From NCBI GenBank assembly GCA_040752695.1, contig JBFMGO010000018.1, forward strand, positions 804-64,803: DNA of 64,000 nt. The letters run 5' to 3'. Source of the DNA: a bacterium. GTDB taxonomy: Bacteria; SZUA-182; DTGQ01. The notes beneath the pieces were generated by a model. That model saw only the letters and a program-made list of their open reading frames with translations, made no database searches and was not told the origin of the DNA. Of the stretch, positions 21,627 through 47,595 are shown piece after piece. The first letter of the stretch is position 1, and each line of letters starts with the position of its first letter. A program made the translations under genes and the position numbers.

Positions 21627-23261
21627 TCAAATCTCCACCTGGAATTTCTTTACCTTGCCGGATGGTGTAATCACGTGAACCGCACATGCTATACATGGAT
21701 CGAATGACCGTATGATCCGGCCAATATTGATGGGATTCTCCGGGTCAGGAATCGGGCAGCCTATCAGTGCCTGCTCATAGGGACCCTTGCGGCCATTTCT
21801 ATCCGTGGGCGAGGCATTCCAGGTTCCAGGCACCACACAGGCATACTGGCTGGTCTTATATTTGGAGATCTTGATCCAGTGGCCCAGTGCTCCCCGTGGA
21901 GCTTCAGACATGCCATAGCCCTGGCCTGAATAGGGCGGGTCCCAGTGGGCAGTATCGTGAATTTTGGGAGGAGTGGGGTTTATTCCCTGCTCGTAGGGAG
22001 CAAAAAGAGCATCCAGTTCATCGAGCCACACCACCATGGCATCACAGAGCATAAGGGTTTCGAGGGCGCGGGCTGCATGCCTGGCCACTGCTCCAGGCTG
22101 AACGCCTGCATTGACTAAAGATACGAAGGTCTGAACCGCTGCATGATTATAGGCTGGATGTTCCGGCCTGTTCAGGATCACCATCATTCTGGCTAAGGGG
22201 CCGACCTCCATCGGGTAGCCATTATAGCGTGGTGCTTTGATGAAAGAATATGCACCTGACTTATTCAGATCGAAAGACTGGACGGTCTGGGAGGGACGGC
22301 CGTCGGTGCCTGCCACATACCAGCCTTTGGTCACGTCTTCTGTCAGGAGCGGTTCAATAGCGGCGCGTGAAGTGCTGTTCGGCACCAGAACCCCGTTGAG
22401 TATCACGCCTTCGGGGTAGAGGTAACCTCCATCGGCCATGGGAAACCCGCCGTACGAGAGATAATTCTGATGGCCCACTCCTACGCTCGAGGTGGCCAGT
22501 CCGAGTAAAGGTCCGGTGCCAAGGGTATACACATCGTTTACATACGTATTGGTAATAAAGGCGGTCTGCTCGGCAAGCATGGTCCGGAATGTGTTCCTGG
22601 TGGCCTGATCGGGTGCCTGGGTTACTCCTCCTGCCACAATGCCTGACTGATGGGGCTGCTTGCCAGCCAGCATGGCTGACATTTTCTTGGCCTTTACCTG
22701 CATGAGCAGTGCCTCGAGGTAGTGCCCGACCGCCATCACTACCGTATCGAGATCGCTGATGCAGTACGCATCCGCCTGATACGCCGGAAGGAGAGGGCCT
22801 GCGTATTCACCCTCCACCGGTTGATGACTGACTTCAGCGATTACTTTATCCCGGATCTTCTGGATGTAAGTATCACTGCCGGTATAGCCGGCAAGAACAC
22901 TGAGGTCGAGATAGTCCAGGGCGGAAAGGTGATAGAAGTGCAGCGGATGATCGTGAAGCCAGGCTGCACCGGCAATGAGATTGCGAATGATCCTTGCCGC
23001 TTCCGGCAGGGTGCGGGTGCCCTGGGCCGTCTCTACGGCCATGCAGGAGGTCCATCCGTGAGCTGCAAAACAGACACCGCAGATGCGCTCGGTCACATAT
23101 GTGGCATCTCGCGGGTCCTTGCCAACCAGCAGCTTTTCAAGACCGCGCGCCATGGTGCCGCCCACCCGGGCATCCGTCACAACACCCCCATCTACTGTCA
23201 CTTCTACCTTCAGATGACCTTCTATTCTGGTAAGGGGATCAACAATAATAGTCTGAGACAT
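21627..23261 (-). CDS. [NiFe] hydrogenase large subunit
   Basis: N-terminal RICGVC..H and C-terminal DPCIACAVH Ni-binding motifs. 544 aa. The C-terminal motif is Cys, not Sec. Confidence 0.9.
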   Translation of the reverse strand: MSQTIIVDPLTRIEGHLKVEVTVDGGVVTDARVGGTMARGLEKLLVGKDPRDATYVTERICGVCFAAHGWTSCMAVETAQGTRTLPEAARIIRNLIAGAAWLHDHPLHFYHLSALDYLDLSVLAGYTGSDTYIQKIRDKVIAEVSHQPVEGEYAGPLLPAYQADAYCISDLDTVVMAVGHYLEALLMQVKAKKMSAMLAGKQPHQSGIVAGGVTQAPDQATRNTFRTMLAEQTAFITNTYVNDVYTLGTGPLLGLATSSVGVGHQNYLSYGGFPMADGGYLYPEGVILNGVLVPNSTSRAAIEPLLTEDVTKGWYVAGTDGRPSQTVQSFDLNKSGAYSFIKAPRYNGYPMEVGPLARMMVILNRPEHPAYNHAAVQTFVSLVNAGVQPGAVARHAARALETLMLCDAMVVWLDELDALFAPYEQGINPTPPKIHDTAHWDPPYSGQGYGMSEAPRGALGHWIKISKYKTSQYACVVPGTWNASPTDRNGRKGPYEQALIGCPIPDPENPINIGRIIRSFDPCIACAVHVITPSGKVKKFQVEI

Positions 23262-23473
23262 ATGATTTCCTTCCTTGCAATCCCCCTGGCGGATTTATCG
23301 GGCCGCATGAGACCTTGAGCAGGCCATGAGCACAATGGCTGCTCGACATCTGCACCCTGCGGCTTTGTCCATACCACCGTCGAGGATTGGATTATCACCA
23401 TTCAACAAGCGGCTCGCCAGGCTGCCAACCAGGCGGCTTACCGGCTGGCTTGCCAGGTGGTTCGCCAATTGGC

Positions 23474-24415
23474 TTACCGCGGTAATATTATTGGACCGAA
23501 GGGGCCGAAAACTACGCCGGTTGCTATATACAGCGGACTGAACTTATCGTAAAATTTGGGTTCGGTGCATCCTGCACAGGGAGAACCGCAGCCAATGCAC
23601 CAGTTGACTCCGTCGTTCCACTTGAGAGAGGGGCAGTCAGAATTGGTCTGGATCCCCTTGCATCCTTTCAGAAACAAACACCAGTCCTTCGTGGATGGAT
23701 TATTCCAATCGCTCAAAAACTCTCCCCTTTCAAAGTGAGGACGGCGGGGGCAATTGTCGTGAATGTTCTGTCCAAAATGAGCCACTGGACGAAGGTTCGC
23801 ATCGAGAGGGGGAACTTCACCACCCAGATACGTAAGAACCGTATCGTAGAACCATGTGGGATGAATGGGGCAGCCTGGCAGGTTGATAAACGGCTTGGAT
23901 ATGGCATACTTGTTTAAGAAATACTCCACACCCTGCCCTTTGCTCACCGTGCCCCTTGGTATGCCTCCATAACAGGCACAGGCCCCAACGGCAATAATTG
24001 CGGCAGCATTACTGGCCGCAGCGATAAAGGTTGCCTCGAAGGCACTGTCAGCGACCATGAGGTATCTTGAATCTGCGGAAGGAATAGAACCCTCTACCAC
24101 AAGAACATATCCGCCTTCCTCAATGGCTTTCACCAGGGCATATTCGGTTACTTCACCGGTTCCGGCCATAATAGTCTCGTGATACCGAATAGTGACGACA
24201 TCAAGGATAACATCCCGCAGATCCGGCGTCAGGCAAGAGAGGACGGACTCTGTACATCCGGTACAGTCTTGACCTTCGAGCCAGACCACCGCAGGCTTCT
24301 TCGACACATCGGCCATAAGTAACTTTGGCCAACCCAACTGGCTTATGCCCAGGGCTGCTGTCGCACCCATGGTCATCTTCATGAATTGGCGCCGAGTAAA
24401 AACGAAAGACTTCAT
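23474..24415 (-). CDS. [NiFe] hydrogenase small subunit, Tat-exported, short periplasmic type
   Basis: Twin-arginine signal (TRRQFMKMTMGATAALG). CxGC...GxCxxxG FeS cluster motifs. 313 aa with no C-terminal membrane anchor. Confidence 0.9.
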   Translation of the reverse strand: MKSFVFTRRQFMKMTMGATAALGISQLGWPKLLMADVSKKPAVVWLEGQDCTGCTESVLSCLTPDLRDVILDVVTIRYHETIMAGTGEVTEYALVKAIEEGGYVLVVEGSIPSADSRYLMVADSAFEATFIAAASNAAAIIAVGACACYGGIPRGTVSKGQGVEYFLNKYAISKPFINLPGCPIHPTWFYDTVLTYLGGEVPPLDANLRPVAHFGQNIHDNCPRRPHFERGEFLSDWNNPSTKDWCLFLKGCKGIQTNSDCPSLKWNDGVNWCIGCGSPCAGCTEPKFYDKFSPLYIATGVVFGPFGPIILPR

Positions 24416-25720: not shown

Positions 25721-28700
25721 TTACTGGACTACCTCAAAAGAACCCACTGTCTGATCCAGCCTGCCCGTGGCATCCTGGGCTGTCAACTGGAGGTTATATA
25801 TTCCATACCCTGTCGATGGCGGGACAACCACCGTCACACTGTAGGTATGATCATGAGCGGTTGAATCTCCATGAGTGCCATCGTCGTACATTACCTGGGA
25901 TGAGCTTCCGGCCAGAGGACTCAAGTCAACGGTAACCGTGGTCAGATCGTTATCCGTATCAAAGGCATAGACCGTGATCAAGACAGTCTGACCCGCCGGA
26001 ATGGTTTGAGGCTCTACCCTGGCTGCTGAGATGGCCGGAGAGGATGCGGCCTTCGGCACGATGCTTGGGTGAGTGTAAAAGAGATTGTCGTGGCAGCCGA
26101 CACAGCTATGGTTGTAGATGATGTTATTCGGCTTGACCATATTTCCCCCAATGCTCTCACTGTAGGAAGCGGTATCATTCCGTTTCGACTTCCTGTAATA
26201 GCGGAAATTAGCGCCGTAATGAGTTGAAATAGTGCCTTTTGTCCATGTCCCTTGAAATTCGGCATTGGGATTATCGACAATGATAACCGATCCGTCGGCT
26301 ACTGACTTAAATCGAACGGCATCGGCAATAACATAACTGAGTGCGTCTCGCCGTGGAGTAGCGCTGCTGCTTACCGTGTCTTCAATATCTTCGGAAGTAA
26401 GCTGGACATAGCCGGAAGTTCCCTGATTGAAGGAAAAGGTTCCCAGAAGGTTCCATACGATCGGGCTTTGTCCTGCGTTTTCCCGCTGATCTTCATAGAT
26501 GATGTCTTCTCCGTTAGCGTGGCTGACCTTATACTTGGCGTGGGATGAATTCAAGCTGGGATCGATTGAGCTGATATCGGACCAGGTTGCGAATACCTTA
26601 TACTGCCCGGCTGCCGGGATATCAGGCCTATAGATGGCAGAGCCGCCTTCGTCTTTGACCAACCAGCCAAAATCGAAGGCAGGTACATAGCTCTGTGTTC
26701 CAGGCGGGCTGATCAATTCACCGTGCCTGATCATGGCAGGAGAAGGCGATCCATGGACATTATGGCAGGTCGTGCAGGTCGAGGCAGCATCACCCTGGCC
26801 ATCAAAATCGGAATCACAGTAATTTCTGACATTCAGTGCAAGGTGCCAGTGATGCTCGTTCCTGTGGGTCCCGAAATTCGTGCCGTAGGGCGGATCTTTG
26901 TGCCATAGGCCCGTTCCCTCGCTGTGGCCCAAAAGCTCATATTTATTATGGCAGCTCAGGCAGAGGGCAAAATCGTCCCACGACTGGGTCGGATCCAAGA
27001 TCATCGGCGGAGTGTTTCTTATAGTCAGGGCCTGATTACCATCGACCATCCGCAGCCTGTATCCTGCCTGATAGTTACCTGACGCATAGCTGTAGGTCCT
27101 GTGCTGATGATCAACGTGCAAAAGGGAAGGATCGTGGCAGTCCGTGCAGCCTACAAGGTCCCTTTTTCCATGCCCTGTTTTATAATATCCGTAAGGATTG
27201 GGGGCGCTTTCATTGCCGATCACGGCCGGGGCAGCTACTCCTGAGCCGTCGGCCCTGCTCATGGCTGGAATCTCGTCATGGCAGCCTGCACACCATTTTT
27301 CCTTGCCTGCCTTGAGCCTGCTGCCCTGATAGACGCTGCCGTTCCAGTTGTTCTTGGCACCGATGACCGGATCGCTTACCCCGTCGTAGCTTCCTTCAGT
27401 GCTGTGGCAGGGATCGCAAACATGGGTTTCGGTCAGGGGTTTATTATCTTTGAAAAGAAAGGTATGAGGGCTGTCTTCATTGCCGGGAGCGTGGCAATCC
27501 CAGCATCCGATGGAAGGGCCTTTGGCCGCGCTCAGGTGGGTGTGGTGGCTTGTTTGAGTCTGCACCATGCTTTCATGGCAATTCTGGCAGGTGGCGACAG
27601 GAGTGCGCTGGTAGGCAACCTGATCGTTATGGCACATGTTGCACATGGCATTCTTTGCGATTGAGCCGGGGCCAGGGCCATAGAATTGAGTCTGGCCGCC
27701 GGTGCTTTCCATGACATCCATAAGATCGGGGTTCGCCTTTTCATCAGCGTCCAGGTACTGAAAGTTGAACAGGGGGGATTTGTCTGCCGGTGTACTGGCC
27801 AATTCGCCATGTCTGGTCATGGCGGGATTGGGAGAGCCGTGAACATTGTGACAGGTAGGGCAGCTCTGCGGTGAGTCCGCGGTTGCATCCCAGTCCGAAT
27901 CCCAGTCCTTGGTGTTTCCGCAATACCCGCGCCCTCTAAGATGGCGAAGATGTTCATTGCTCACCTTTCCGTTCTCATCCGTATGACTGTCGTTGCGGAA
28001 ATTGGTCGCTGGAGGATCTTGCAGGAAACCGTCCGTACCATAGGCATCGCCCAGCAGTTTGTATTTATCGTGGCAGGCAAAGCACAGGGCAAAGTCGTTG
28101 CCGGTCCTGGGATTTTCGCCACTGTTGCAGCCGATCCGGGGAATTTCCAGAGGCGGGTAAGATATCCCATCCACCTGCACACTATTCAGCCGGTACCCAC
28201 TCTGATAGTTGTTCAGGCTGGCCCGGTAGGTTCCGGCCACACCATCGATATGCGCACTGGCCGTATCATGACAGTGCTCACACCCGAACCTATGGCCATT
28301 GACATAGTAGCCGTATCGCAGGTCTTCCTTTACTTCGAATTCACGAAGATGACCTATGCTCAAAGGCCATGGGCTGACCTTAAGCAGTTTGAGATAGCGG
28401 GCCGGAATGAATCTATCCAGCCTGATCTCGTTCCATCCTCCCTCGGTCCCTGTCTGCCAGGTGGGAGAGGCAAAAAGGGTGGATCGGCCCAATAAGACCT
28501 TCACAGCACAGCCGGGATCATCGCCGCCGTAGACATTCCAGTTGAACCCGGAGCCAGGGGCGGTATACAGCCTGATATGCGTAACGTCGTCAGAATCTGC
28601 AAGGTCAAAGGTAATGTATCCTCCACCCGTACCGGTACTTCCCGTGTTATTGTCCCGGTCCAGCAGGTTTTCCGCACCCTGGATATCCGAAGCCTCTATG

Positions 28701-29149
28701 CTGTCAGGACTCTGCCAGTCTCCGCTCAGGGATTTTCCTGCAATGTTCGGCGCGGATACACCCTGAATTTGGCATGATCCATCATCATGACAACCGACAC
28801 ACCATTTCTCCTTGCCCGGCTTCAACGAACCGCCCTCATACACACCGCCTGTCAGCCAATTGGCCTTGGCCCCTGTAACCTCATCCCCTACTCCGTCAAA
28901 CTGTCCGGCTGGGCTATGACAATGACCGCAGATACTGGTGGTGGCCAGACCTAAACCATCCTTCAGATAGCCTGGATAAGGGTCATCATGGCAATAGGCG
29001 CAGTCAAGCTGCGGCCCGTTGAGGCTGCTCTGATGCACGGCGCAGAGTTGACCTGCCAGCCCCCTTTCAGGATTTCCCCACATACCAAGCAGGCAAAAAA
29101 TGAGAATAAAAACCGCTTCCAGTCCTCTGCAATTCTCTCTCTTACACAT
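25721..29149 (-). CDS. Very large multiheme cytochrome c (15 CxxCH), secreted, with internally duplicated ~500-aa halves
   Basis: CxxCH motifs counted: CAYCH, CGHCH, CVGCH, CEHCH, CFACH, CPTCH, CNMCH, CQNCH, CWDCH, CDPCH, CAGCH, CTDCH, CLSCH, CTTCH, CVGCH. The two halves repeat blocks such as ...CxxCHD...KWCxGCHD... and ...CxTCHNVHGSP.PAM.RHGEL.... Signal peptide from the ATG at 29149 with an AAGGAGA RBS. Confidence 0.8.
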   Translation of the reverse strand: MCKRENCRGLEAVFILIFCLLGMWGNPERGLAGQLCAVHQSSLNGPQLDCAYCHDDPYPGYLKDGLGLATTSICGHCHSPAGQFDGVGDEVTGAKANWLTGGVYEGGSLKPGKEKWCVGCHDDGSCQIQGVSAPNIAGKSLSGDWQSPDSIEASDIQGAENLLDRDNNTGSTGTGGGYITFDLADSDDVTHIRLYTAPGSGFNWNVYGGDDPGCAVKVLLGRSTLFASPTWQTGTEGGWNEIRLDRFIPARYLKLLKVSPWPLSIGHLREFEVKEDLRYGYYVNGHRFGCEHCHDTASAHIDGVAGTYRASLNNYQSGYRLNSVQVDGISYPPLEIPRIGCNSGENPRTGNDFALCFACHDKYKLLGDAYGTDGFLQDPPATNFRNDSHTDENGKVSNEHLRHLRGRGYCGNTKDWDSDWDATADSPQSCPTCHNVHGSPNPAMTRHGELASTPADKSPLFNFQYLDADEKANPDLMDVMESTGGQTQFYGPGPGSIAKNAMCNMCHNDQVAYQRTPVATCQNCHESMVQTQTSHHTHLSAAKGPSIGCWDCHAPGNEDSPHTFLFKDNKPLTETHVCDPCHSTEGSYDGVSDPVIGAKNNWNGSVYQGSRLKAGKEKWCAGCHDEIPAMSRADGSGVAAPAVIGNESAPNPYGYYKTGHGKRDLVGCTDCHDPSLLHVDHQHRTYSYASGNYQAGYRLRMVDGNQALTIRNTPPMILDPTQSWDDFALCLSCHNKYELLGHSEGTGLWHKDPPYGTNFGTHRNEHHWHLALNVRNYCDSDFDGQGDAASTCTTCHNVHGSPSPAMIRHGELISPPGTQSYVPAFDFGWLVKDEGGSAIYRPDIPAAGQYKVFATWSDISSIDPSLNSSHAKYKVSHANGEDIIYEDQRENAGQSPIVWNLLGTFSFNQGTSGYVQLTSEDIEDTVSSSATPRRDALSYVIADAVRFKSVADGSVIIVDNPNAEFQGTWTKGTISTHYGANFRYYRKSKRNDTASYSESIGGNMVKPNNIIYNHSCVGCHDNLFYTHPSIVPKAASSPAISAARVEPQTIPAGQTVLITVYAFDTDNDLTTVTVDLSPLAGSSSQVMYDDGTHGDSTAHDHTYSVTVVVPPSTGYGIYNLQLTAQDATGRLDQTVGSFEVVQ

Positions 29150-29269
29150 AGACAGATCTCCTTGACTATTCGTTTTGAGGGAAAATTGTGCCAGGCCATG
29201 GCCACGTCTTTGCCAGACCATTTTTGTTTTCCCTCAAGATCCTTTTCTCTCCTCGTGTATATCTCACCT

Positions 29270-30154
29270 TCAATCAATTGACTCGCTATTAGTTTCATCA
29301 TGGACTTCTGCACTGCTGGCAGGCAGGTAGTTGACTCCTGTCTGATGAAAATTTCCGGCAGCATTTTGGCTGGATACATTTTTGATGGCATAGCTATAGT
29401 CATGATCAAGATATATTCCATATCCGCCATTCTCCAGTATGATATTTCCTTCAAGAAGGCATTTATCGACAGCATAGAGACCATGGGAACCATTGGAATG
29501 AGCCGTGCAGTCGATTACCGTGGAAGATTCGACGTGCAGGCCACAGGAACCGTTGAAATCGGCCGTACAGTTGATTATGGTGGATGAATCGGCTCTGATG
29601 CCATCAGAACCGTTGTAATTGGCCCGGCAATTGTCTATGAGAGAGGATTCTGCATCGATGCCGCAGGAACGGTTATACAAGGTACTGATACCTTTCACCT
29701 GATGATCCTTTCCAGAAAGGCTGATACCGCAGGAGAACCCCTGCACCGTTCCATTTACGATCTCGATATTCTTCCTCCCAAAGGCGCATATGCCTATGCC
29801 TGTTGAGGCATCGTTTGAGATTCCATCGCTTCCTGGCCCCGTAATGATATTGCCCTGTAAGTCAAGGGTCACATCGTCAGCCTTGATCTCAATGCAGCAG
29901 GTGCCGGTAGTGAATACGGTCAAATTTTTGGCCAGGGTATAGTTTCCCGGCTGGTCAATGACAATGGGGAAAGGAGCGGCCAGTTGCAGCCTGCTCTCGA
30001 TGGGCCTCATATCGGCCAGCCTGGTATCAACCCGTCCGATACCAACCTGCCCTTCTGTCTTGCCGGAACCGGGAGACATACAGAAAATGACATGGATAAG
30101 TACTGTGAATAATAAAGCCCCTAAGGTTAAACGAAGATTTTTTCTCATTTTCAT
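29270..30154 (-). CDS. Secreted right-handed parallel beta-helix repeat protein (NosD/pectate-lyase-like fold)
   Basis: Signal peptide. ~22-aa PbH1-like repeats (IDNCRANYNGSDGIRADSSTIINCTADFNGSCGLHVESSTVIDCTAHSNGSHGLY). Directly upstream of, and co-directional with, the large cytochrome. Confidence 0.5.
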   Translation of the reverse strand: MKMRKNLRLTLGALLFTVLIHVIFCMSPGSGKTEGQVGIGRVDTRLADMRPIESRLQLAAPFPIVIDQPGNYTLAKNLTVFTTGTCCIEIKADDVTLDLQGNIITGPGSDGISNDASTGIGICAFGRKNIEIVNGTVQGFSCGISLSGKDHQVKGISTLYNRSCGIDAESSLIDNCRANYNGSDGIRADSSTIINCTADFNGSCGLHVESSTVIDCTAHSNGSHGLYAVDKCLLEGNIILENGGYGIYLDHDYSYAIKNVSSQNAAGNFHQTGVNYLPASSAEVHDETNSESID

Positions 30155-30540
30155 CAATTTATTCTCCCTGAACAGAAAACTCTGTCCATAGACAAACAAA
30201 TTCGTATCCATAGGCAGGGTAATGTCCATGGTAATTGCTGGTCCAACGGTTGAGTTTTTATCAATGTGGTGCTGTTATACAGTGATGATGTCACCTCCTT
30301 TGATTATCCATGACAAGATATATCCATAGACTTTGTTTAATAAGGTATATTAGACTTCCCAATGTCTTCTTCAGACCAGGTCAAGAGAATGATCAAAATG
30401 AGGAATACACTTCATTAATTAAGCATAAGCAGTGCCAATTCAGGGTAAAAGTTCAGCCATTGAATGCACTGCTGTCAGGGCAACAGGATCACCCTGCCGA
30501 TAAGATGAGGCAACCAAATTTCCTGTCAGGAGAAAAGGAG

Positions 30541-30933
30541 ATGAAACACTCTTTGTCCCAGGCTCTTCCCCCTGCATCCCGGACGGAGCAGGAAAATTAT
30601 CACCTTCGTCTTCGCTTTGAATATGGTCCTCTGGACGATGGGACCCTCTGGATACGGATTGGGGTGCGGGGACTTTTCCATGCAGACTGGATGACTCTGC
30701 GGCTCCTTCTGGAATTGAATGGTGGAAGATCAATAACCGCGCTGGCTGAAAAGTATAAGATTGAGCAGCAGGAATTGCACGCTCTCCTTGTGAGTCTTGA
30801 GAAAGGGGGCTCAATTGTTTCTGCAGGGCAGGGGAAAATCACCATGGGGCGTCAGTGGGATGATATTCACCTATTCTGGGAAGGGTCATCCTTCCTTTTT
30901 TTCATTGATCAAGGAGATGGATATGCAGCTTGA
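30541..30933 (+). CDS. PqqD-family protein (RiPP recognition element-like peptide chaperone)
   Basis: The winged-helix PqqD pattern (LWIRIGVRGLFHADWMTLRLLLELNGGRSITALAEKYKIEQQELHALLVSLEKGGSIV) is present. Start chosen at MKHSLSQ, which has a GGAGAAAAGGAG RBS. The 3' end overlaps the next gene's start. Confidence 0.55.
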   Translation: MKHSLSQALPPASRTEQENYHLRLRFEYGPLDDGTLWIRIGVRGLFHADWMTLRLLLELNGGRSITALAEKYKIEQQELHALLVSLEKGGSIVSAGQGKITMGRQWDDIHLFWEGSSFLFFIDQGDGYAA

Positions 30934-33079
30934 ATTTTTAAAGAATCTTCTTTATCTCATGGCTGTTGCTGTTCTTATTGCCTCGACCTGCAGGATACTG
31001 AAAGAATATGAGCGGGCGGTTATTTTTCGCCTGGGAAAATTGCGGGACACGAAAGGTCCGGGACTGGTCTTTCTGATCCCGCTGGTTGACCGGATGCACA
31101 GGATTGACCTTCGGCTTGTATCGATTGATGTTCCCCGGCAGGATATCATGACCAGGGATAATGTTCCGGTAACCGTGGATGCAGTCGTTTACTTCAATAT
31201 CACTGATCCGGCCAGGGCAATCACCCGTATACAAAACATTTACCAGTCAACATTTCTGATCGCTCAGGCTACTCTGCGCAATGTCCTTGGTCAGGCAGAG
31301 CTGGATGACCTCCTCAGCCAGCAGGCGAAAATCAATCAGCAGTTGCAGCAGATTATCGCCGTAAACACCGGCCACTGGGGAATCTCGATTCCCATAGTTG
31401 AAATCAAGGAAGTTACCCTGCCGGAAGAAATGAAGCGGGCTATGGCTAAACAGGCGGAAACCGAGCGGGAGAGGCGGGCTCTTTTGATCGATGCCCAGGG
31501 TGAATACCAGGCTGCAAAGACCCTGGCCAAAGCAGGCCAGATTCTGTCCGGCAACCCTCAAAGCCTGCAACTGCGCTACCTTCAAACCCTGCGGCATATT
31601 TCCACCCAGCAAGGCTCGACTATCCTTTTTCCGCTGCCTCTGGATCTGATCAGCCCCTTTGTCAACGGGATAAAAGGGCTTCGGCCCAGGAGTGAGGAGG
31701 GAACGGCTATGAGTATGGGTTTGGATGTGGGTTTGGATAAAGCTATAGGTATGGACACGAATGTGGGTACGAATATGAGGGAAGATGAAGCCGCTGCCAC
31801 TGCCATCAGCGGCCTGAGCGGCAACTTCTCCGATGGTCCCATCCGGCAGGATACGGCGGATATATCACCAAAGATGCCAAACGTGAATCCAAAGATGCCA
31901 AACGTGAGCGATCTGTCAGGTTCCTTTTCTCTGCATGAATCAGCTCCCCTGAGGCAGCAGTCCCCGCTGAAGCAGCCGCCCCCGCTTAAACAGCCTTCAC
32001 CCCAAAAGGTTCTCCTGACCCAATACCAGCAGAAGTGGCGTAGCGGCCGGCTTCGGCCCCAGTTTGTGCAATGGCTGAGTACGAATCGCTGCCAGTTTCG
32101 ATGCACGCATTGCGAAACGACGGCCGGGCAGGCCAGCCCGGGAGAATTGACCACCAGTGAGGTCAAAAAGATAATTGATGATCTGGCTGATCTGGGATGC
32201 GAATTCTTTTCCATTACCGGCGGTGAACCCCTGCTGCGGCCCGATATCTTTTTGCTTGCCCGGCATGCCCACGAGCGGGGGATGAAAGTAGGGCTCACCA
32301 CAAATGGTCAGGCCACGGAGGAAAATCTCCTGGCCTTCGAGCAGGCGCGTTTTGATTCCTTGATTATTACCCTGGATGGCTGTCAGGGTACTCAGGACCG
32401 CCTGCGCGGCTGCCCGGGATCTTACGAGCGGGGAATCCGGACTATCGAATTCTACCATGACCTTGGGGCTCCCTTCATCGGGGTCAGCACCACACTTCTG
32501 GAAGAAAACATCAGGGATCTTCCGCAACTGACCGACGAGGTTTTTCGGGCCGGCGCCCACCAGCTCCAGCTTCAGCCCCTCCTTTTTCAGCATGGTCGGC
32601 CTAGCCGCAATAGCCCGGAAACAGTAAAAAATGCCTTCCGGTTTATCCTGGAAGCCAGAGGACGCGGGGTTGCCGTAGAACCGTCAGAGTCTTTCGGTTA
32701 TCTGGGGCCTTTGGAACCCCTGATCCGGACTAATCCTTTTTTTTGCGGCTGCGGCTGGAATACCTTCTGCCTGACCCATGAAGGAGAAGTATCAGGCTGT
32801 GCGGTACCGGTTCTCTCAGGCCAGACTGAGGGAAATATCCGGGATGGTTCTCTCAAAAAGATCTGGGAGCAGGAGTTTGGCAATTTCCGCAGGAATCTGC
32901 CAGCCGGGCTTTCCAATACGTGCCGGCAATGCCCGCACCTTTCACTTTGCCGGGGCGGATGCTGGCTCTTTCGCGCTCAAGGATTGAACCCCTGCTTCCT
33001 TCCGGAGGCAGAACAAGTGGAGGTCTTTTATGCGCTATATCCTCAAACTGCTGAAGGAAAAACCCAGGTATTACCTTGA
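30923..33079 (+). CDS. Fusion protein: N-terminal membrane SPFH/band-7 (stomatin/prohibitin-like) domain, low-complexity linker, C-terminal radical SAM + SPASM domain enzyme
   Basis: N-terminus: TM helix plus SPFH motifs (YERAVIFRLGKL...GPGLVFLIP...DAVVYFNI...). Linker: PKMPNV and PLRQQSPLKQPPPLKQ repeats. C-terminus: CX3CX2C (CQFRCTHC), a GGEPLL glycine-rich SAM motif, and SPASM cysteines (CGCGWNTFC...C...CRQCPHLSLCRGGC). One uninterrupted ORF. Start at ATG 30923 with an AAGGAG RBS. Confidence 0.7.
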   Translation: MQLEFLKNLLYLMAVAVLIASTCRILKEYERAVIFRLGKLRDTKGPGLVFLIPLVDRMHRIDLRLVSIDVPRQDIMTRDNVPVTVDAVVYFNITDPARAITRIQNIYQSTFLIAQATLRNVLGQAELDDLLSQQAKINQQLQQIIAVNTGHWGISIPIVEIKEVTLPEEMKRAMAKQAETERERRALLIDAQGEYQAAKTLAKAGQILSGNPQSLQLRYLQTLRHISTQQGSTILFPLPLDLISPFVNGIKGLRPRSEEGTAMSMGLDVGLDKAIGMDTNVGTNMREDEAAATAISGLSGNFSDGPIRQDTADISPKMPNVNPKMPNVSDLSGSFSLHESAPLRQQSPLKQPPPLKQPSPQKVLLTQYQQKWRSGRLRPQFVQWLSTNRCQFRCTHCETTAGQASPGELTTSEVKKIIDDLADLGCEFFSITGGEPLLRPDIFLLARHAHERGMKVGLTTNGQATEENLLAFEQARFDSLIITLDGCQGTQDRLRGCPGSYERGIRTIEFYHDLGAPFIGVSTTLLEENIRDLPQLTDEVFRAGAHQLQLQPLLFQHGRPSRNSPETVKNAFRFILEARGRGVAVEPSESFGYLGPLEPLIRTNPFFCGCGWNTFCLTHEGEVSGCAVPVLSGQTEGNIRDGSLKKIWEQEFGNFRRNLPAGLSNTCRQCPHLSLCRGGCWLFRAQGLNPCFLPEAEQVEVFYALYPQTAEGKTQVLP

Positions 33080-34166
33080 TAAGATAAAATATTATCCCAG
33101 GAACGTCGTTTGGGAGCTGACCCTGCGCTGCAACATGAATTGCGCTCATTGCGGTTCTGCGGCAGGCCCTGAACGGAGCAGGGAACTGAACCAGGAAGAG
33201 GCCCTGGATCTTTGCCATCAACTGGGGCGACTGGGCTGCGAGATTCTGACCCTGCTGGGAGGTGAACCCTTCCTGCGGGAAGACTGGGACGATCTGGCCC
33301 AATGCCTTAATGAGTATGGCGTTAAAGTGAATGCCATCTCCAACGGCTACCTCATGGACCAGGCCCTGGTGGACCGGATCAGGAAGGCCGGCCTTATCAA
33401 TGTGGCCATAAGCCTGGACGGACTTCAGGAAACTCACGAGAAGATCCGGCGAAAGCCAGGATCATATCACAGGGTGCTGAACGCCCTCACCCTGCTCCGC
33501 CGGAACGAGGTTTCAACTGCCGTGGTCACCACTATTTGCAAAAATAACCTGGCCGAGTTGGATGAGCTCTGCCGGATCGTCACGGAAAGCGGGGCGGAGA
33601 TCTGGCAGGTGCAGCTTGGCGTCCCCCGCGGGAGGCTGTGCGAACACGCCGAGTTTATTATCCAGCCTGAGGACATGCACACTGTCGAGCAATTTATTAT
33701 CCGGGTTCGCCAAAAGGGCCTGATCCGCCTGGATGTGGCCGACAACATCGGCTACTTCGGCCAGCATGAGGAGGCCCTCCGGGCAAATATACCCGGACGG
33801 ATGCCCCTATGGACCGGCTGCTTTGCCGGTGTGCAGGCCCTTGGCATCGAGGCCAACGGGGACATCAAAGGCTGCCTCTCCATGCCCTCTTTACCGGAGT
33901 TCAAAGAGGGCAACATCCGGCAGGAATCCCTGACCGCTATCTGGAACAAGCCTGGAAATTTCGCCTACAACCGCAGCTTTCATACCAGCCTGCTGGAAGG
34001 AGACTGCGCAGACTGTGCATATGACTATGTCTGCCGGGGAGGATGCAAATCTACAGCCTACTGCTTTACCGGCTCGATCTTCAACAATCCCTACTGTCTC
34101 TATCGACTGGAAAAGAAGGCAAGGGAAATAAAGCAGCCATCACCGGTTAGTCTGCATCTTCTTTGA
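33030..34166 (+). CDS. Radical SAM / SPASM domain protein (second maturase-like enzyme)
   Basis: CX3CX2C (CNMNCAHC), GGEPFL, and a SPASM twin-cluster region (CFAGV...C...CADCAYDYVCRGGC). GGAGG RBS. Overlaps the upstream gene by 50 nt, suggesting translational coupling. Confidence 0.8.
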   Translation: MRYILKLLKEKPRYYLDKIKYYPRNVVWELTLRCNMNCAHCGSAAGPERSRELNQEEALDLCHQLGRLGCEILTLLGGEPFLREDWDDLAQCLNEYGVKVNAISNGYLMDQALVDRIRKAGLINVAISLDGLQETHEKIRRKPGSYHRVLNALTLLRRNEVSTAVVTTICKNNLAELDELCRIVTESGAEIWQVQLGVPRGRLCEHAEFIIQPEDMHTVEQFIIRVRQKGLIRLDVADNIGYFGQHEEALRANIPGRMPLWTGCFAGVQALGIEANGDIKGCLSMPSLPEFKEGNIRQESLTAIWNKPGNFAYNRSFHTSLLEGDCADCAYDYVCRGGCKSTAYCFTGSIFNNPYCLYRLEKKAREIKQPSPVSLHLL

Positions 34167-34331
34167 AAATGGTCTCTGTCTTCTTTAAAAACCGGCATTC
34201 TTGCGGTATTCAATAAGGATCCACGATACCAATGAGCCATAATTTTTCTTTTTAAGGCCGATAAGGGAGAGGAAAAATCATAAACTTCGGGCCTCGTCAA
34301 AAGAGAGGATGAAAACAAGGAGACAATCACT

Positions 34332-34631
34332 ATGGCTCATATCTTTTTTGAAAAGCTGGAAAACCGGCAAAGCACTCAGGCGCTGTATGGAGGGGCTGGA
34401 CTCCCTGCTAAAAATAAGCCCGTTACTTCCGAGTGGGGAGGATCTGGCTGGTTTGAAGAGCATCCGGTATCGGTTTTGGAATATGCAGGGCCCACTCCCT
34501 GGACGCCACCTGGTGGCGGCAGGTTAAGCGGCTTCATAAGTGCCTGGTGGAATACCATGCTCGCATATTGGGAGGAGTGGGCTTTTCATCAGAGATTGAT
34601 GTATATGATATACCCGCCTGAAAAGAAATAA
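34332..34631 (+). CDS. Small Trp/Gly-rich hypothetical protein (99 aa); candidate substrate/precursor or accessory of the adjacent rSAM cassette
   Basis: Good RBS (AAGGAGA, 8-nt spacing). No Cys. W-rich (WGGSGWF, PWTPPGGG, AWWNTMLAYWEEW). Contains the string ...QSTQALYGG-AG.... Confidence 0.45.
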   Translation: MAHIFFEKLENRQSTQALYGGAGLPAKNKPVTSEWGGSGWFEEHPVSVLEYAGPTPWTPPGGGRLSGFISAWWNTMLAYWEEWAFHQRLMYMIYPPEKK

Positions 34632-35126
34632 TATTCGCAATACAACCTAAAAAGGATGAGATCCGGAAGAAATGCTCATGTCCAGGAGGGGGATAAAACC
34701 GGACATGAGCACCGGATATATCTTTTTCAGCCCTCCCCCGTATCCTTCCTATCCCGGATCAACCACGATAGTCTTAAGCCGTCTGCACGAATACCTCTAT
34801 AGTTTTAAGCCGTCTATACGGATACCGCTTCCGGATGCACTGCCCCATTTTAAATATTCGTAGAAAGTCTTTCCGTAACCGTAATAGAATGGAATCAATT
34901 ACCGCCTGATTAAAAATAGAAATTTGACTTAACCATCATGAATCTATCCCCAAAGAGGAATCTTTCTGTTAAAAACCCTTCAATGGTCGCTAAGGGGGTC
35001 CCATCCCTCTTGAGAAAAACGGGAGAAGCGGCATTTTGACAAGGAGGAAGAGGAGGAGGTATTTTGGGACAGACTCATGGAAAGACGTAAACAGCAAGGA
35101 AAGATGTGAATAAGGAGAACGGTAAG

Positions 35127-36863
35127 ATGATCACCATGAAACATTCAAAAAAGCATTTCTCTCTCACCCTGATCTTTACTATTGGCTTAGCAATAGTTCT
35201 TTGTACCACCTGCCTGCTTTGGCCCGCCCCTGTTACCGCTTCAGTAGAGTTTCTCTCTTTGTCAGATCTTCTTCCTTACTCATACCCTGCACTGACTTTT
35301 ACCGATATTTTCCGTCAATCCCTGTCAACGCTGTCACCCTCTCTGCCACTTTTGCCCTCTCTGCCGCTTTTGCCTTCACTCTCCAACTGGCAAAATCCGG
35401 CACCTTTCCTGACCTTGCCAGCCGCTCTTCAACCGGCACCAGGAGAGTTCCCGAATATTCTGGCTGGTCCCGGCCCTTCTTTTCTCTCCCTTCCTTCTCT
35501 TCTCCCCACCCCTTCCTTTCTCTCCGCTCCGCCTGCACCTTTAGCCCGTGTCGCTGCCGGGATTGTTCCTCCTCCACTGAACCCTGTTGTCGCCTCGCTC
35601 ACACCCCCGGTTCCTGTGGGGATCGACACACTCCAACTCCGAAATGGGCCGCTTGTTGCTTTGCAATCCCTGGGATCATTTATCCCTGGTGTGCCGACCT
35701 ACGTAAACGGCCAGGTCATGGTCACTTTTCTGCCCGGCACTCCCCCGGCTGAAATGGCCAGAGTCTATACCGCCAACCAGTGCCGTGAGATATACGCAAG
35801 TCCCTATGCTGGCTTTAAGCTCCTGGCCATACCAGCCCTTGTGTCACCGCTCGATATGACCCGACAGCTTGCCATGGAGCCTTCGGTCCTCTACGTAAGC
35901 CCCAATTATTACCGCCACGCCCATCTTATTCCCAATGATCCGTATTACACCTACCAGTGGCACCTGCCCAGGCTGAACGCCAGCTATGCCTGGGATTTTA
36001 GTACCGGCACCGGAGCACTGGTCGGCATCCTGGACTCCGGCGTGGCCTATGAGACAACCGCCACCTATGCCCTGGCGCCCGATCTTGCCGGGACACTTTT
36101 CGCACCCGGCTATGACTTTATCAACCTCGATACCAATCCGGATGACGATTACGGGCATGGAACGCATATGGCAGGATGCATCGCCCAGACGACCAACAAC
36201 CTGCTGGGGTGCGCGGGTGTGGCCTTCAATGCCACCATCATGCCGGTCAAGGTAATGGACAGCACCGGCAACGCGCCAATCAGTGCTGAAGTCGACGGCA
36301 TTTACTTTGCGGCCAACAGCGGAGTGAATATTATCAGCATGAGCCTTGGAGGAGCCGGTACCGACGCTACCGAGGCGGCAGCCGTTACCTATGCCTATAC
36401 GAATGGAGTATCCATCATCTGCTCAGCAGGCAACGCAGGCTCCAGCATCCCGGAATACCCGGCTTCCTACCCCGAATGCATTTCCGTAAGCGCTATCCGC
36501 TATGACTACACGATACCTGCTTACTCCAATTACGGGCAATACATCGACGTTTGCTCTCCGGGCGGAGATCTCACCGTTGACCAGAACCTCGACGGCTTTG
36601 GCGACGGGGTCCTGCAGCAAACCTTTGCATCACCCAATTATACGACCTTCTACTACTATTTCATGGAGGGTACTTCTCCTGCCGCAGCATTAGTCTCCGG
36701 AGCCGCTGCTCTCATCGTGAGTAAGAGCACGCTTCCCCTTACACCGCTTCAGGTGACCAATATTCTGGAGGGCAGCGCTACCGACCTGGGTACTGTCGGT
36801 TGGGATCAGTACTATGGCTACGGCCTGGTGAATCCCTACCTGGCCGTGCTCCAGACACCGTAG
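35127..36863 (+). CDS. Subtilisin-like serine protease (S8 family) with Pro/Leu-rich low-complexity N-terminal region
   Basis: Catalytic triad motifs: VGILDSG (Asp), HGTHMAG (His), GTSPAAALVSGAAAL (Ser). Signal peptide. AAGGAGAA RBS with 7-nt spacing. Confidence 0.85.
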   Translation: MITMKHSKKHFSLTLIFTIGLAIVLCTTCLLWPAPVTASVEFLSLSDLLPYSYPALTFTDIFRQSLSTLSPSLPLLPSLPLLPSLSNWQNPAPFLTLPAALQPAPGEFPNILAGPGPSFLSLPSLLPTPSFLSAPPAPLARVAAGIVPPPLNPVVASLTPPVPVGIDTLQLRNGPLVALQSLGSFIPGVPTYVNGQVMVTFLPGTPPAEMARVYTANQCREIYASPYAGFKLLAIPALVSPLDMTRQLAMEPSVLYVSPNYYRHAHLIPNDPYYTYQWHLPRLNASYAWDFSTGTGALVGILDSGVAYETTATYALAPDLAGTLFAPGYDFINLDTNPDDDYGHGTHMAGCIAQTTNNLLGCAGVAFNATIMPVKVMDSTGNAPISAEVDGIYFAANSGVNIISMSLGGAGTDATEAAAVTYAYTNGVSIICSAGNAGSSIPEYPASYPECISVSAIRYDYTIPAYSNYGQYIDVCSPGGDLTVDQNLDGFGDGVLQQTFASPNYTTFYYYFMEGTSPAAALVSGAAALIVSKSTLPLTPLQVTNILEGSATDLGTVGWDQYYGYGLVNPYLAVLQTP

Positions 36864-36987: not shown

Positions 36988-37485
36988 ATGCGGCCAAATG
37001 TCCAGGAATATATTTCAAGAGTTGAACAACTCTATGGCCGGATCGACCTGTGGCTTAGGAAACAAGCTTTGACTGCTCAAAGAGTGTTCATTGAAGTCGA
37101 TGAAGGGGGGCCGGAACGCTATAAAGCTCCACAACTTTTGATATGGAAAAAAAGGAAAACACTCGTTGCTGAGCTGCGGCCTATGGGCGTCTGGATAGCA
37201 GGTGCCAAAGGACGCATTGATATTATTGGACAGTTTGAGACAAAGGTTTTGGTCTACATGGAGATGATGAAGCTCAAGGCCAGTCCCCAGGATACGATCA
37301 GTGGCAAAGAGGAAAAAAGCAGTCTGAAACCACTGTTTGGGGAAATAGACCAATCAGGCTGGTACTGGATAGAAGACAAGCACCAGGGAAAAGCGCGACT
37401 TGTGGATGCTGCACTTTTCCCTGAGCTTTTGCTGGATGTTTCAGGATACGAATTATCCCCCCTCACACCGCCATTCTCCCCTTAA
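36988..37485 (+). CDS. Hypothetical protein
   Basis: ORF only. No recognisable domain. The RBS is distant. Confidence 0.3.
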   Translation: MRPNVQEYISRVEQLYGRIDLWLRKQALTAQRVFIEVDEGGPERYKAPQLLIWKKRKTLVAELRPMGVWIAGAKGRIDIIGQFETKVLVYMEMMKLKASPQDTISGKEEKSSLKPLFGEIDQSGWYWIEDKHQGKARLVDAALFPELLLDVSGYELSPLTPPFSP

Positions 37486-47416: not shown

Positions 47417-47595
47417 TTTCAACTCCGATAATTCTGAATGGAAAAAACCTGGAGGGTCTGACACCTGGCAGGTAATACCATCACATTTTTTTCATAGAAA
47501 TTAATTGATGTCCTACACACAAAATCTGATTATGCCACCAAGATCCAATTTTTTTTCATAATATCCTGTCCATCTTTGGCTTTTCTTAATATAGT

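What the first reader, a model, noticed from the sequence alone, without database searches (positions are those of the whole stretch)
30541..36863. PqqD-like protein + SPFH-fused radical SAM/SPASM + second radical SAM/SPASM + Trp-rich small protein + S8 protease: a maturase cassette with an unusual membrane-scaffold fusion
Three genes are translationally coupled. The PqqD-like RRE stop overlaps the start of gene 2, and gene 3 starts 50 nt inside gene 2.

Gene 2 is one uninterrupted 718-codon ORF. A transmembrane SPFH/band-7 (stomatin-like) domain is joined through a repeat-rich linker (PKMPNV x2, PLRQQSPLKQPPPLKQ) to a complete CX3CX2C radical SAM core and a SPASM auxiliary-cluster domain.

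The combination of a PqqD-family partner and two rSAM/SPASM proteins is the architecture described for the uncharacterised GeoRSP system in Geobacter-type genomes. It is also the logic of PQQ, mycofactocin and streptide maturation. SPFH domains normally organise membrane microdomains and pair with NfeD. I do not know of any description of an SPFH domain fused to a peptide-modifying rSAM. Such a fusion would localise a RiPP-like maturase to a membrane scaffold.

No Cys-rich precursor is nearby. The only adjacent small gene (34332..34631, good RBS) encodes a Cys-free, Trp/Gly-rich 99-aa protein. This could be a substrate for Trp- or Tyr-based C-C or C-N crosslinking (streptide- or darobactin-like chemistry), or the enzymes could act on a protein. 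A subtilisin-like protease 500 nt further on could be the leader peptidase.
Basis: partly seen in the sequence, partly recalled or inferred. Interest (0 to 1): 0.85.

Follow-up and report, generated by a model that had tools for sequence, protein, structure and literature searches.

The report
Membrane-scaffold-fused radical SAM peptide-maturation cassette
The stomatin (SPFH) membrane-scaffold protein fused to a radical SAM enzyme is real and conserved in a few uncultivated bacteria, where it belongs to a four-gene cassette that probably modifies tyrosine motifs in a repeat-rich precursor protein, but the copy in this window has lost its protease domain and most of its precursor.

Summary
The ORFs, their overlaps and the domains are as described. 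Gene 2 is one 718-aa protein: a full stomatin/SPFH module, a low-complexity linker, then a radical SAM/SPASM enzyme.

The fusion is not an artefact. Nineteen full-length sequence clusters (49-73% identity) carry it, all from metagenomes or MAGs labelled only "bacterium".

Synteny in about ten loci shows the real cassette:
- a winged-helix domain fused to an M50-like intramembrane HExxH protease;
- the stomatin-rSAM fusion;
- a second rSAM/SPASM;
- one or two proteins of 180-250 aa with a conserved N-terminus (MAHIFFEKLENRxSTQxL) and 2-6 (L/Y)-Y-G-(V/I) sites.

Gene 3 scores best against TIGR04103. I recall this as the PlpX tyramine-splicease family, whose members act on X-Y-G motifs. The score is below the family cutoff.

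No PqqD or GeoRSP model is matched. The S8 protease is not a conserved neighbour. "Gene 1" is a stub left by a ~0.6-kb deletion of the protease domain. The 99-aa gene is a truncated family member that lacks the repeat sites.

No paper in the searched library describes an SPFH-rSAM fusion. I rate it a new variant of a RiPP-like pathway. The chemistry and the scaffold's role are inferred, not shown.

The parts
30541..30933 (+). g1: 130-aa stub. It is the conserved N-terminal soluble domain (weak winged-helix signal, candidate leader-recognition domain) of a gene that elsewhere is 306-340 aa and carries an M50-like intramembrane protease.
   Evidence: Homology to full-length proteins ends at residue 111, nt 30873. 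Alignments A2 and A3. MarR_2 E=0.007. No PqqD hit.
30873..30908 (+). Relic of the ancestral 3' end of the protease gene (ILGRVILPFFH*). It is readable out of frame with g1. It marks a deletion of about 0.6 kb (about 200 codons) that removed the HExxH / NPxxxGDG membrane domain.
   Evidence: DNA alignment with L001 and L004 and direct reading. No protease domain lies elsewhere in the window.
30923..33079 (+). g2: a 718-aa fusion of stomatin/SPFH, a linker and a radical SAM/SPASM enzyme.
30935..31003 (+). The single N-terminal hydrophobic anchor of g2 (residues ~5-27). It is followed by basic residues (RILKEYER), so the bulk of the protein is inferred to be cytoplasmic.
   Evidence: Hydropathy scan. 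The topology is an inference from the positive-inside rule.
30968..31663 (+). Full stomatin module (SPFH plus the C-terminal helical part).
   Evidence: E=4e-62 to human stomatin 9oh9 over residues 16-247. Also matches PH stomatin, QmcA and HflK/C. Band_7 131.6 bits.
31670..32032 (+). Low-complexity Pro/Gln/Ser-rich linker. Its length varies by roughly 170 residues among orthologues (fusion proteins 619-884 aa).
   Evidence: Alignment A1.
32078..32935 (+). Radical SAM core (CX3CX2C at 32090-32113) and SPASM domain of g2. All cluster cysteines are invariant in 19 orthologues.
33030..34166 (+). g3: a stand-alone radical SAM/SPASM enzyme, 31-32% identical to the g2 rSAM part. Its best curated match is the splicease-type family TIGR04103.
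   Evidence: TIGR04103 275.6 bits, E=5.5e-82, cutoff 725. AF2 model pLDDT 91.9. Closest folds are PqqE, CteB, SkfB, SuiB and anSME.
34332..34631 (+). g4: a 99-aa truncated member of the precursor family. It keeps the conserved N-terminus (34332-34385) and a remnant of the central motif. It has no (L/Y)YG(V/I) site in its body.
35106..36863 (+). Secreted or membrane-anchored S8 subtilase. It is adjacent but is not part of the conserved cassette.
   Evidence: Peptidase_S8 160.7 bits. Absent from L001, L003, L004 and L005.

Best explanation
The window holds a partly eroded copy of a conserved, membrane-associated RiPP-like maturation cassette.

In its intact form (for example GCA_040755755.1, contig JBFLZW010000055.1, about 92.6-98.5 kb) the cassette encodes four components:
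1. An intramembrane M50-like HExxH metalloprotease with a cytoplasmic winged-helix N-domain.
2. A stomatin whose C-terminus is tethered by a flexible linker to a radical SAM/SPASM enzyme.
3. A second radical SAM/SPASM enzyme of the tyramine-splicease type.
4. One or two precursor proteins of 180-250 aa. These have a conserved 18-residue N-terminal recognition sequence and several (L/Y)-Y-G-(V/I) sites.

Proposed mechanism (inferred):
- The precursor N-terminus is recognised in the cytoplasm by the winged-helix domain, by the rSAMs directly, or by both.
- g3 acts radically on the Tyr of the X-Y-G sites. [quoted passage not shown] The g2 rSAM may act on the same sites or on a second site class.
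- The stomatin part oligomerises into a ring or cage on the inner face of the membrane. This holds many rSAM copies next to the intramembrane protease.
- The protease then removes the leader or cuts the modified protein.

Shown: the gene content, the fusion, the conservation, the motif enrichment and the family similarities.
Inferred: the chemistry, the scaffold role, the order of steps and the topology.

In this window the protease domain is deleted and the precursor is truncated. This copy is therefore probably not producing the normal product.
For: Fusion and rarity:
- The fusion is conserved in 19 full-length clusters at 49-73% identity, with all Fe-S cysteines invariant.
- Among the 150 best-scoring of 1.84 billion 50%-identity representatives, only one cluster combines SPFH and rSAM.

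Cassette:
- The four-gene order with overlapping g2/g3 occurs in L001/L002, L003, L004, L005, L007 and L088.
- Full-length g1 homologues match the RiPP intramembrane proteases daptide_HExxH (E 1e-11 to 1e-14) and YydH/LiaK (E 1e-10 to 1e-14), and carry HE(M/L)GHY and NPxxxGDG motifs.

Precursors:
- They share M[APS]HIFFE[KRP]LE[KN]R..TQ.L.
- Each has 2-6 YG[VIL] sites against 0.1-0.7 expected; shuffle P<=0.01 in all 10 full-length members.
- The native PlpA3 splice site is AAMYGVVFPW.

Link to spliceases:
- The top NCBIfam hit of g3 is TIGR04103 at 275.6 bits.
- PlpX is placed in IPR026482 (PMC11002830).
- Spliceases act on X-Y-G (PMC11414181, PMC9811515, PMC11626197).
- A 46%-identical relative of g3 lies 20 nt downstream of a protein with 4x (L/K)YG(I/V)PFE.

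Scaffold link:
- The distant variant L093 has a precursor-like gene, a g3-type rSAM, a wHTH-M50 protease and a stand-alone stomatin in a row. Protease, stomatin and rSAM are therefore linked even when unfused.
- 78 ordinary stomatin loci have no such neighbours.
- The stomatin part is closest to cage-forming stomatins: 9oh9 (16 chains in the entry) and QmcA 8z5g (26 chains).
Against: - g3 scores far below the TIGR04103 cutoff (275.6 vs 725) and almost as well on TIGR03913 (254.9). It is a relative of the splicease family, not a member.
- The equivalence IPR026482 = TIGR04103 is from my memory.
- The precursors also carry (I/L)Y(A/S)(A/V) sites.
- The closest large clade of g3 relatives (about 47-51% identity; the three members examined are coupled to an ATP-grasp enzyme) sits next to small ORFs with Y(A/S)(V/I)GEED repeats, not Y-G, in two of those loci. 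The shared feature may therefore be 'Tyr + small + aliphatic', and the chemistry may be something other than splicing.
- No transporter is in the conserved cassette.
- The winged-helix/RRE assignment rests on E-values of 0.007-0.04. The single-sequence AF2 model was unusable (pLDDT 38.8).
- Only about ten loci were examined, all from uncultivated organisms.
- Nothing about oligomerisation, topology or protease-stomatin contact was tested.
Confidence: 0.55

Rival explanations
1. Same cassette, different chemistry. The rSAM/SPASM enzymes make Tyr-centred crosslinks, for example a three-residue cyclophane between the Tyr ring and the beta-carbon of the V/I/A two residues on (triceptide-like). Alternatively they epimerise, rather than excising tyramine.
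For: The broader motif across the superfamily is Y-(G/A/S)-(V/I/A). This includes Y-A-V and Y-S-V repeats in relatives and fits an aromatic-X-X cyclophane motif. g3 is below the splicease family cutoff. The fold matches crosslinking enzymes such as SuiB and PqqE equally well.
Against: The top two curated models are the splicease-type TIGR04103 and TIGR03913. No cyclophane-maturase model (XyeB, GrrM or FxsB type) is among the 25 best hits, all of which score >=68.7 bits. Y-G is by far the commonest form of the site: 38 YG[VIL] sites in 11 proteins.
Confidence: 0.25
2. The locus in this window is a decaying, non-functional remnant. The deletion of the protease domain and the shortened, motif-less precursor mean that no product is made here, even though the two rSAM genes are still intact. 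This is compatible with the best explanation for the family.
For: A ~0.6-kb out-of-frame deletion has the old stop still visible. g4 is 99 aa against 178-251 aa elsewhere, with 0 YG[VIL] sites in its body. No other copy of the protease or precursor lies in the 64-kb window. Every other locus with enough sequence has the full-length gene.
Against: g2 and g3 are full length with all catalytic cysteines. g1 and g4 keep good RBSs and open frames. A free winged-helix protein could still serve as a discrete recognition subunit, as PlpY does. g4 retains one L-Y-G at residues 18-20. Reads could not be inspected, so a MAG assembly error is not excluded.
Confidence: 0.45
3. One reading: a GeoRSP- or PQQ-like system in which a PqqD-family chaperone presents a substrate to two rSAM/SPASM enzymes, with the S8 subtilase as leader peptidase.
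For: It has two rSAM/SPASM genes plus a small upstream protein with a helix-turn-helix-like core. PqqE is the top structural match of g3.
Against: GeoRSP_rSAM scores 72 and 119 bits against a cutoff of 400. No PqqD or GeoRSP_PqqD hit appears at E<=5. The S8 gene is not conserved next to the cassette. The conserved protease is the M50-like domain.
Confidence: 0.05
4. The two rSAMs are tetrapyrrole enzymes (AhbC/AhbD/NirJ-like) and the SPFH fusion is incidental.
For: AhbD and NirJ models give 120-180 bits.
Against: All are far below their cutoffs (500-650) and below the peptide-maturase models. There are no heme or siroheme genes in any of the loci. The conserved neighbours are a RiPP-type protease and a repeat-rich precursor.
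Confidence: 0.03
5. The SPFH-rSAM fusion is an assembly or gene-calling artefact.
For: None beyond the general possibility in MAGs.
Against: The same architecture occurs in 19 independent clusters from NCBI, JGI, ENA and Logan assemblies. Linkers differ and both halves are conserved.
Confidence: 0.01

Closest known systems
Spliceotide pathways (PlpA/PlpX/PlpY of Pleurocapsa sp. PCC 7319; RhaX/RhaA and RcsX/RasX of Rheinheimera)
   Same: Both have an rSAM/SPASM enzyme next to precursors carrying X-Y-G sites; the native site AAMYGVVFPW compares with LLYGVFPNP and AYYGVPAPW here. Both involve a small winged-helix/RRE-like partner, or a leader helix. Multi-site and protein-sized substrates have been reported for spliceases.
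   Different: g3 does not reach the TIGR04103 cutoff. The leader here is not of the Nif11 or NHLP type. A second rSAM is fused to a stomatin. The recognition domain is fused to an intramembrane protease. The precursors are 180-250 aa, low-complexity and rich in aromatic residues, Gly, Ser and Pro, with 2-6 sites.
Epipeptide system YydFGHIJ / LiaK, and the daptide intramembrane metalloprotease
   Same: Both pair an rSAM-modified (or otherwise modified) ribosomal peptide with an M50-like membrane HExxH protease. Full-length g1 homologues hit both protease models at E 1e-10 to 1e-14.
   Different: Scores are far below the family cutoffs (44-54 bits vs 225-300). The protease here has an extra cytoplasmic winged-helix domain. 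There is no ABC transporter. The rSAMs are SPASM enzymes of another clade than YydG/EpeE.
SPFH-protease pairs: stomatin-NfeD/STOPP operons and HflK/C-FtsH
   Same: A membrane protease gene lies directly next to a stomatin-type SPFH gene (L093: 15 nt apart). The stomatin part is a close relative of cage-forming stomatins.
   Different: The protease is M50-like, not a ClpP-like serine protease or the AAA+ protease FtsH. No NfeD is present. The stomatin carries an enzyme at its C-terminus.
GeoRSP system (TIGR04303 and partners)
   Same: Two rSAM/SPASM genes plus a small accessory protein.
   Different: Model cutoffs are not met, there is no PqqD-family hit, and the neighbours differ.
Triceptides (three-residue cyclophane-forming rSAM/SPASM enzymes)
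   Same: Both have precursors with many repeats of an aromatic-X-X motif and an rSAM/SPASM maturase.
   Different: No cyclophane-maturase model is among the best hits of g3. The second position is strongly Gly, as at splice sites.

Membership tests
SPFH / stomatin | Band_7 domain above the Pfam cutoff, an N-terminal membrane anchor, and similarity over the whole stomatin module | tested here: met
   PF01145 131.6 bits (cutoff 23.6). E=4e-62 to human stomatin over residues 16-247. One hydrophobic segment at residues 5-27.
Radical SAM / SPASM | CX3CX2C motif and a seven-Cys SPASM domain | tested here: met
   g2: C390/C394/C397, plus C608, C626, C667, C670, C676, C680 and C691, invariant in 19 orthologues. 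g3: C34/C38/C41, plus C264, C282, C326, C329, C335, C339 and C356, invariant in 40 homologues. Pfam SPASM scores 30.4 and 35.5 bits (cutoff 21.5).
Spliceotide pathway (tyramine splicease) | rSAM belongs to the PlpX family (IPR026482 / TIGR04103) | tested here: inconclusive
   TIGR04103 is the best hit of g3 (275.6 bits, model positions 5-351 of 412) but falls below the 725-bit cutoff. TIGR03913 follows closely at 254.9 bits. The g2 rSAM part scores only 134.7 bits.
Spliceotide pathway (tyramine splicease) | X-Y-G sites in the adjacent precursor | tested here: met
   Met in the family: 2-6 YG[VIL] sites per protein, P<=0.01 against shuffles in 10 of 10 full-length members. In this window g4 has only L-Y-G at residues 18-20 and none in its body.
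Spliceotide pathway (tyramine splicease) | [quoted passage not shown] | not testable with these tools
   Needs co-expression and MS.
GeoRSP system | rSAM reaches the TIGR04303 cutoff and a GeoRSP PqqD-family partner is present | tested here: not met
   72 bits (g2) and 119 bits (g3) vs a cutoff of 400. No PqqD-type model hit for g1.
PqqD / RRE domain | Match to PqqD-family profiles, or a three-strand plus three-helix winged-helix fold that binds the leader | tested here: inconclusive
   No PF05402 or NCBIfam PqqD hit at E<=5. No PqqD chain in a PDB profile search at E<=10; the best hits are other winged helices. AF2 from a single sequence gave pLDDT 38.8.
RiPP intramembrane M50-like metalloprotease (daptide_HExxH, YydH/LiaK) | HExxH and NxxPxxxxDG motifs in transmembrane helices, and a score above the cutoff | tested here: inconclusive
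   Homologues carry HE(M/L)GHY and NPxxxGDG plus at least 3 hydrophobic segments. They hit both models at E 1e-10 to 1e-14, but with 39-54 bits vs cutoffs of 225-300. In the window the whole domain is absent.
AhbC/AhbD/NirJ heme-pathway rSAMs | Score above the equivalog cutoff and heme-pathway neighbours | tested here: not met
   The best is AhbD at 180.5 bits vs a cutoff of 500. No heme genes appear in any locus.

The most novel reading that the evidence does not exclude
The stomatin ring acts as a dedicated membrane 'maturasome'. A homo-oligomeric SPFH cage encloses or gates the M50-like intramembrane protease and displays a crown of tethered radical SAM enzymes. A multi-site precursor would then be modified and cleaved in one confined place. 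This would be the first SPFH microdomain known to organise a biosynthetic pathway, and the first RiPP-type pathway built on such a scaffold.
Probability: 0.3. Interest if true: 0.85.

Novelty: new variant of a known kind. Interest (0 to 1): 0.68.

Why it matters
What most prokaryotic SPFH proteins do is still debated. The best-understood cases are cages around membrane proteases.

This family is a natural gene fusion. It ties a stomatin to an rSAM peptide maturase and, through gene order, to a RiPP-type intramembrane protease. That gives a concrete client for a stomatin that can be tested genetically.

For natural-product research it defines a new precursor family: a conserved 18-residue N-terminus and multiple X-Y-G-(V/I) sites in proteins of about 200 aa. 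It also offers a probable new branch of tyramine-splicing or related Tyr-directed rSAM enzymes. Spliced products characterised so far are protease inhibitors and useful protein-engineering handles.

The family also shows that recognition, modification and proteolysis modules can be fused in unexpected combinations: winged helix with protease, and scaffold with rSAM.

Tried and rejected
Rival ideas tested and rejected:
- GeoRSP and PqqD membership. HMM cutoffs are not met.
- A heme-pathway (AhbD/NirJ) reading. Scores are lower and there are no heme neighbours.
- The fusion as an artefact. Rejected by 19 conserved clusters.
- The S8 subtilase, the beta-helix protein and the multiheme cytochrome as cassette members. 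They are not conserved in other loci.
- An anti-phage defence system. PADLOC gives only generic viperin-type rSAM similarity.
- A generic stomatin neighbourhood. 78 ordinary stomatin loci show no g1-like or g3-like genes.
- Frameshifted remains of a longer precursor downstream of g4. None are convincing.

Searches and tools that led nowhere:
- The search for homologous proteins with g1 returned only g1 itself.
The single-sequence model was useless.
- The afdb50 fold library was not available.
- Scott et al. 2022 (Chem 8:2659) and Morinaka et al. 2018 (Science) are not held. I therefore could not check whether this cassette type was already catalogued among spliceases.
- No PlpX or RhaX sequence could be obtained for a direct comparison.
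- The window's own contig could not be looked up.
Full report
**1. Observation.**
All five ORFs exist at the stated coordinates.
- g1 (30541-30933) has a GGAG RBS and ends 11 nt inside g2.
- g2 (30923-33079) is an open 718-codon frame.
- g3 (33030-34166) begins 50 nt inside g2. The same 29-53-nt overlap is kept in orthologous loci.

Pfam places Band_7 (residues 25-194), Radical_SAM (386-538) and SPASM (608-671) in g2. It places Radical_SAM and SPASM in g3, and Peptidase_S8 in 35106-36863.

g1 does not hit PqqD or any RRE model. Only weak winged-helix models appear (MarR_2 E=0.007). g4 (34332-34631) has an AAGGAG 9 nt upstream and no family hit.

**2. The fusion is real, conserved and rare.**
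A search of 5.8 billion clusters found 19 full-length proteins with Band_7 + Radical_SAM (+SPASM) at 49-73% identity. All come from metagenomes or from MAGs named only "bacterium".

In their alignment the stomatin part and both Fe-S motifs are invariant, while the linker varies by roughly 170 residues (fusion proteins 619-884 aa).

An exhaustive HMMER pass over 1.84 billion 50%-identity representatives listed only one fusion cluster among the 150 best. A 584-aa two-stretch hit proved to be a double Band_7 with no rSAM.

The N-terminal 250 residues are a complete stomatin. They match human stomatin at E=4e-62 (the entry holds 16 chains), and also QmcA and HflK/C.

A full-text search found no paper describing an SPFH-radical SAM fusion.

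**3. The real cassette.**
Six loci with enough sequence share one gene order:
- a protein of 306-340 aa;
- the fusion;
- a 368-aa rSAM/SPASM;
- one or two proteins of 178-251 aa.

The flanks differ from locus to locus. The S8 protease, the beta-helix protein and the multiheme cytochrome of this window do not recur.

The first protein consists of the domain seen in window g1 followed by a membrane domain with HE(M/L)GHY and NPxxxGDG motifs. That domain matches the RiPP intramembrane metalloproteases of daptides (E 1e-11 to 1e-14) and of epipeptides (YydH/LiaK, E 1e-10 to 1e-14), though below the family cutoffs.

The last proteins share the N-terminus M[APS]HIFFE[KRP]LE[KN]R..TQ.L, which is the same as window g4. 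They also share a central SP(L/F)WNIFGGLFG-like block and a body rich in Tyr, Trp, Gly, Ser and Pro.

**4. This window's copy is eroded.**
Homology between g1 and the full-length genes stops at residue 111 (nt 30873). The last 11 codons and the stop of the ancestral gene (ILGRVILPFFH*) are still readable out of frame at 30873-30908. About 0.6 kb encoding the whole protease domain has therefore been lost.

No protease domain lies elsewhere in the 64 kb. Every other locus has the full gene.

g4 keeps the leader and a trace of the central block but stops at 99 aa. It has none of the repeat sites in its body. g2 and g3 are intact.

I could not inspect reads, so an assembly error at the junction is not excluded.

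**5. What the enzymes probably do.**
The precursors carry 2-6 copies of (L/Y)-Y-G-(V/I)-x-x-P, against 0.1-0.7 expected from composition. Shuffle P is <=0.01 in all ten full-length members.

[quoted passage not shown] The native PlpA3 site is AAMYGVVFPW (PMC10533398 supplement).

The best curated model for g3 is TIGR04103, "nif11-class peptide radical SAM maturase 3": 275.6 bits, E=5.5e-82, nearly full length, but with a cutoff of 725. Next is TIGR03913 at 254.9 bits.

PlpX is said to belong to IPR026482 (PMC11002830). I recall this as the InterPro form of TIGR04103, and that link is not verified here.

A 46%-identical relative of g3 (299 bits on TIGR04103) lies 20 nt after a 281-aa protein with four (L/K)YG(I/V)PFE repeats.

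The AF2 model of g3 (pLDDT 91.9) matches peptide-modifying SPASM enzymes: PqqE, CteB, SkfB, SuiB, anSME and ChlB. It has no RRE domain of its own, so recognition must come in trans or from the leader.

Some evidence cuts against splicing. The precursors also have (I/L)Y(A/S)(A/V) sites. The nearest large clade of g3 relatives (about 47-51% identity) is coupled to RimK-like ATP-grasp enzymes in the three loci examined. In two of them the neighbours are small ORFs with T-x-Y-(A/S)-(V/I)-G-E-E-D repeats. The common denominator may therefore be "Tyr, small residue, aliphatic residue", and another Tyr-directed reaction remains possible.

The g2 rSAM part is only 31-32% identical to g3. It has no clear nearest family, and stand-alone homologues of it exist.

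**6. Why a stomatin.**
The distant variant L093 has four genes in a row:
- a precursor-like gene (MIVEDLEHRKSTSSL..., with KYGPG, IYSVP and LYSAP repeats);
- a g3-type rSAM;
- a wHTH-M50 protease;
- 15 nt later, a stand-alone stomatin.

Protease, stomatin and rSAM were thus linked before, or independently of, the fusion. The fused rSAM looks like an added paralogue.

Ordinary stomatin loci (78 examined) have no such neighbours.

It is established knowledge that SPFH proteins form cages around, or pair with, membrane proteases (HflK/C-FtsH; stomatin-NfeD/STOPP). By analogy I infer that the stomatin ring organises the M50-like protease and tethers the rSAM beside it on the cytoplasmic face. The single N-terminal anchor followed by basic residues supports that topology. 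None of this was tested.

**7. Modular relatives.**
g1-like wHTH-M50 proteases also occur directly after an ATP-grasp gene of apparently the same kind (similar C-terminal sequences by eye; not tested) in L091 and L092. The recognition-protease module is thus shared between rSAM and ATP-grasp systems, which fits a RiPP-type role.

**8. Verdict.**
The interpretation needs correcting on four points:
- there is no PqqD or GeoRSP;
- the S8 enzyme is not the leader peptidase;
- the conserved protease is an M50-like enzyme that is missing from this window;
- the likely substrate family carries X-Y-G sites that point to splicease-type chemistry.

I class it as a new variant of a known kind (rSAM RiPP-like maturation). 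Its scaffold architecture is undescribed in the literature I could search. Better exemplars than this window are the intact loci in GCA_040755755.1, GCA_049472395.1 and GCA_049472355.1.

Noticed in passing
L096 713-3077; L098 2040-4401; L094 3069-5227: A clade of g3 relatives (47-48% identity for these three) is translationally coupled to a RimK-like ATP-grasp gene. In L096 and L098, small ORFs of 64-68 aa on the opposite strand (L096 2871-3077, L098 4207-4401) carry 2-3 repeats of T-x-Y-(A/S)-(V/I)-G-E-E-D. This may be an undescribed rSAM + ATP-grasp peptide family.
   Followed up: partly
L091 548-2392; L092 7044-8885: An ATP-grasp gene of apparently the same kind (similar C-terminal sequences by eye; not tested) is directly followed (stop/start adjacent) by a g1-like winged-helix + M50-like protease. 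There is no rSAM or stomatin, and no precursor was identified.
   Followed up: partly
L095 3135-3980: A 281-aa protein has an N-terminal hydrophobic segment. It has four to five Cys/Asp-rich repeats (DNDGDGTVDC...), most followed by (L/K)YG(I/V)PFE. It lies 20 nt upstream of a g3 relative.
   Followed up: partly
L005 10725-11630; L006 8026-8934; L007 10974-11879: A third radical SAM gene (Radical_SAM + DUF3463; PTO1314-family-like, 142 bits) follows the cassette in the more distant sub-clade. In L006 it directly follows the fusion, and g3 and the precursor are absent.
   Followed up: partly
L001 11822-11893: A 23-aa leader-only ORF (MAHIFFERLENRQSTQALYGGED*) sits between the two full precursors. 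Its sequence is the closest match to the N-terminus of window g4.
   Followed up: no
window 25721-29221 (-): A 1166-aa protein has many CXXCH heme-binding motifs (cytochrome c7/c3-type hits) and a Golvesin_C domain. It lies next to a right-handed beta-helix protein at 29270-30229 (-).
   Followed up: partly
window 21627-24415 (-): Large and small subunit genes of a [NiFe] hydrogenase lie here. Together with the rSAM genes, this is consistent with an anaerobic host.
   Followed up: partly
window 46001-48000: G+C drops to 0.38 against about 0.50 for the rest of the window. This could be foreign DNA. It was not examined.
   Followed up: no
window 36988-37485 (+): A 165-aa ORF just after the S8 gene has no Pfam or NCBIfam hit.
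   Followed up: no
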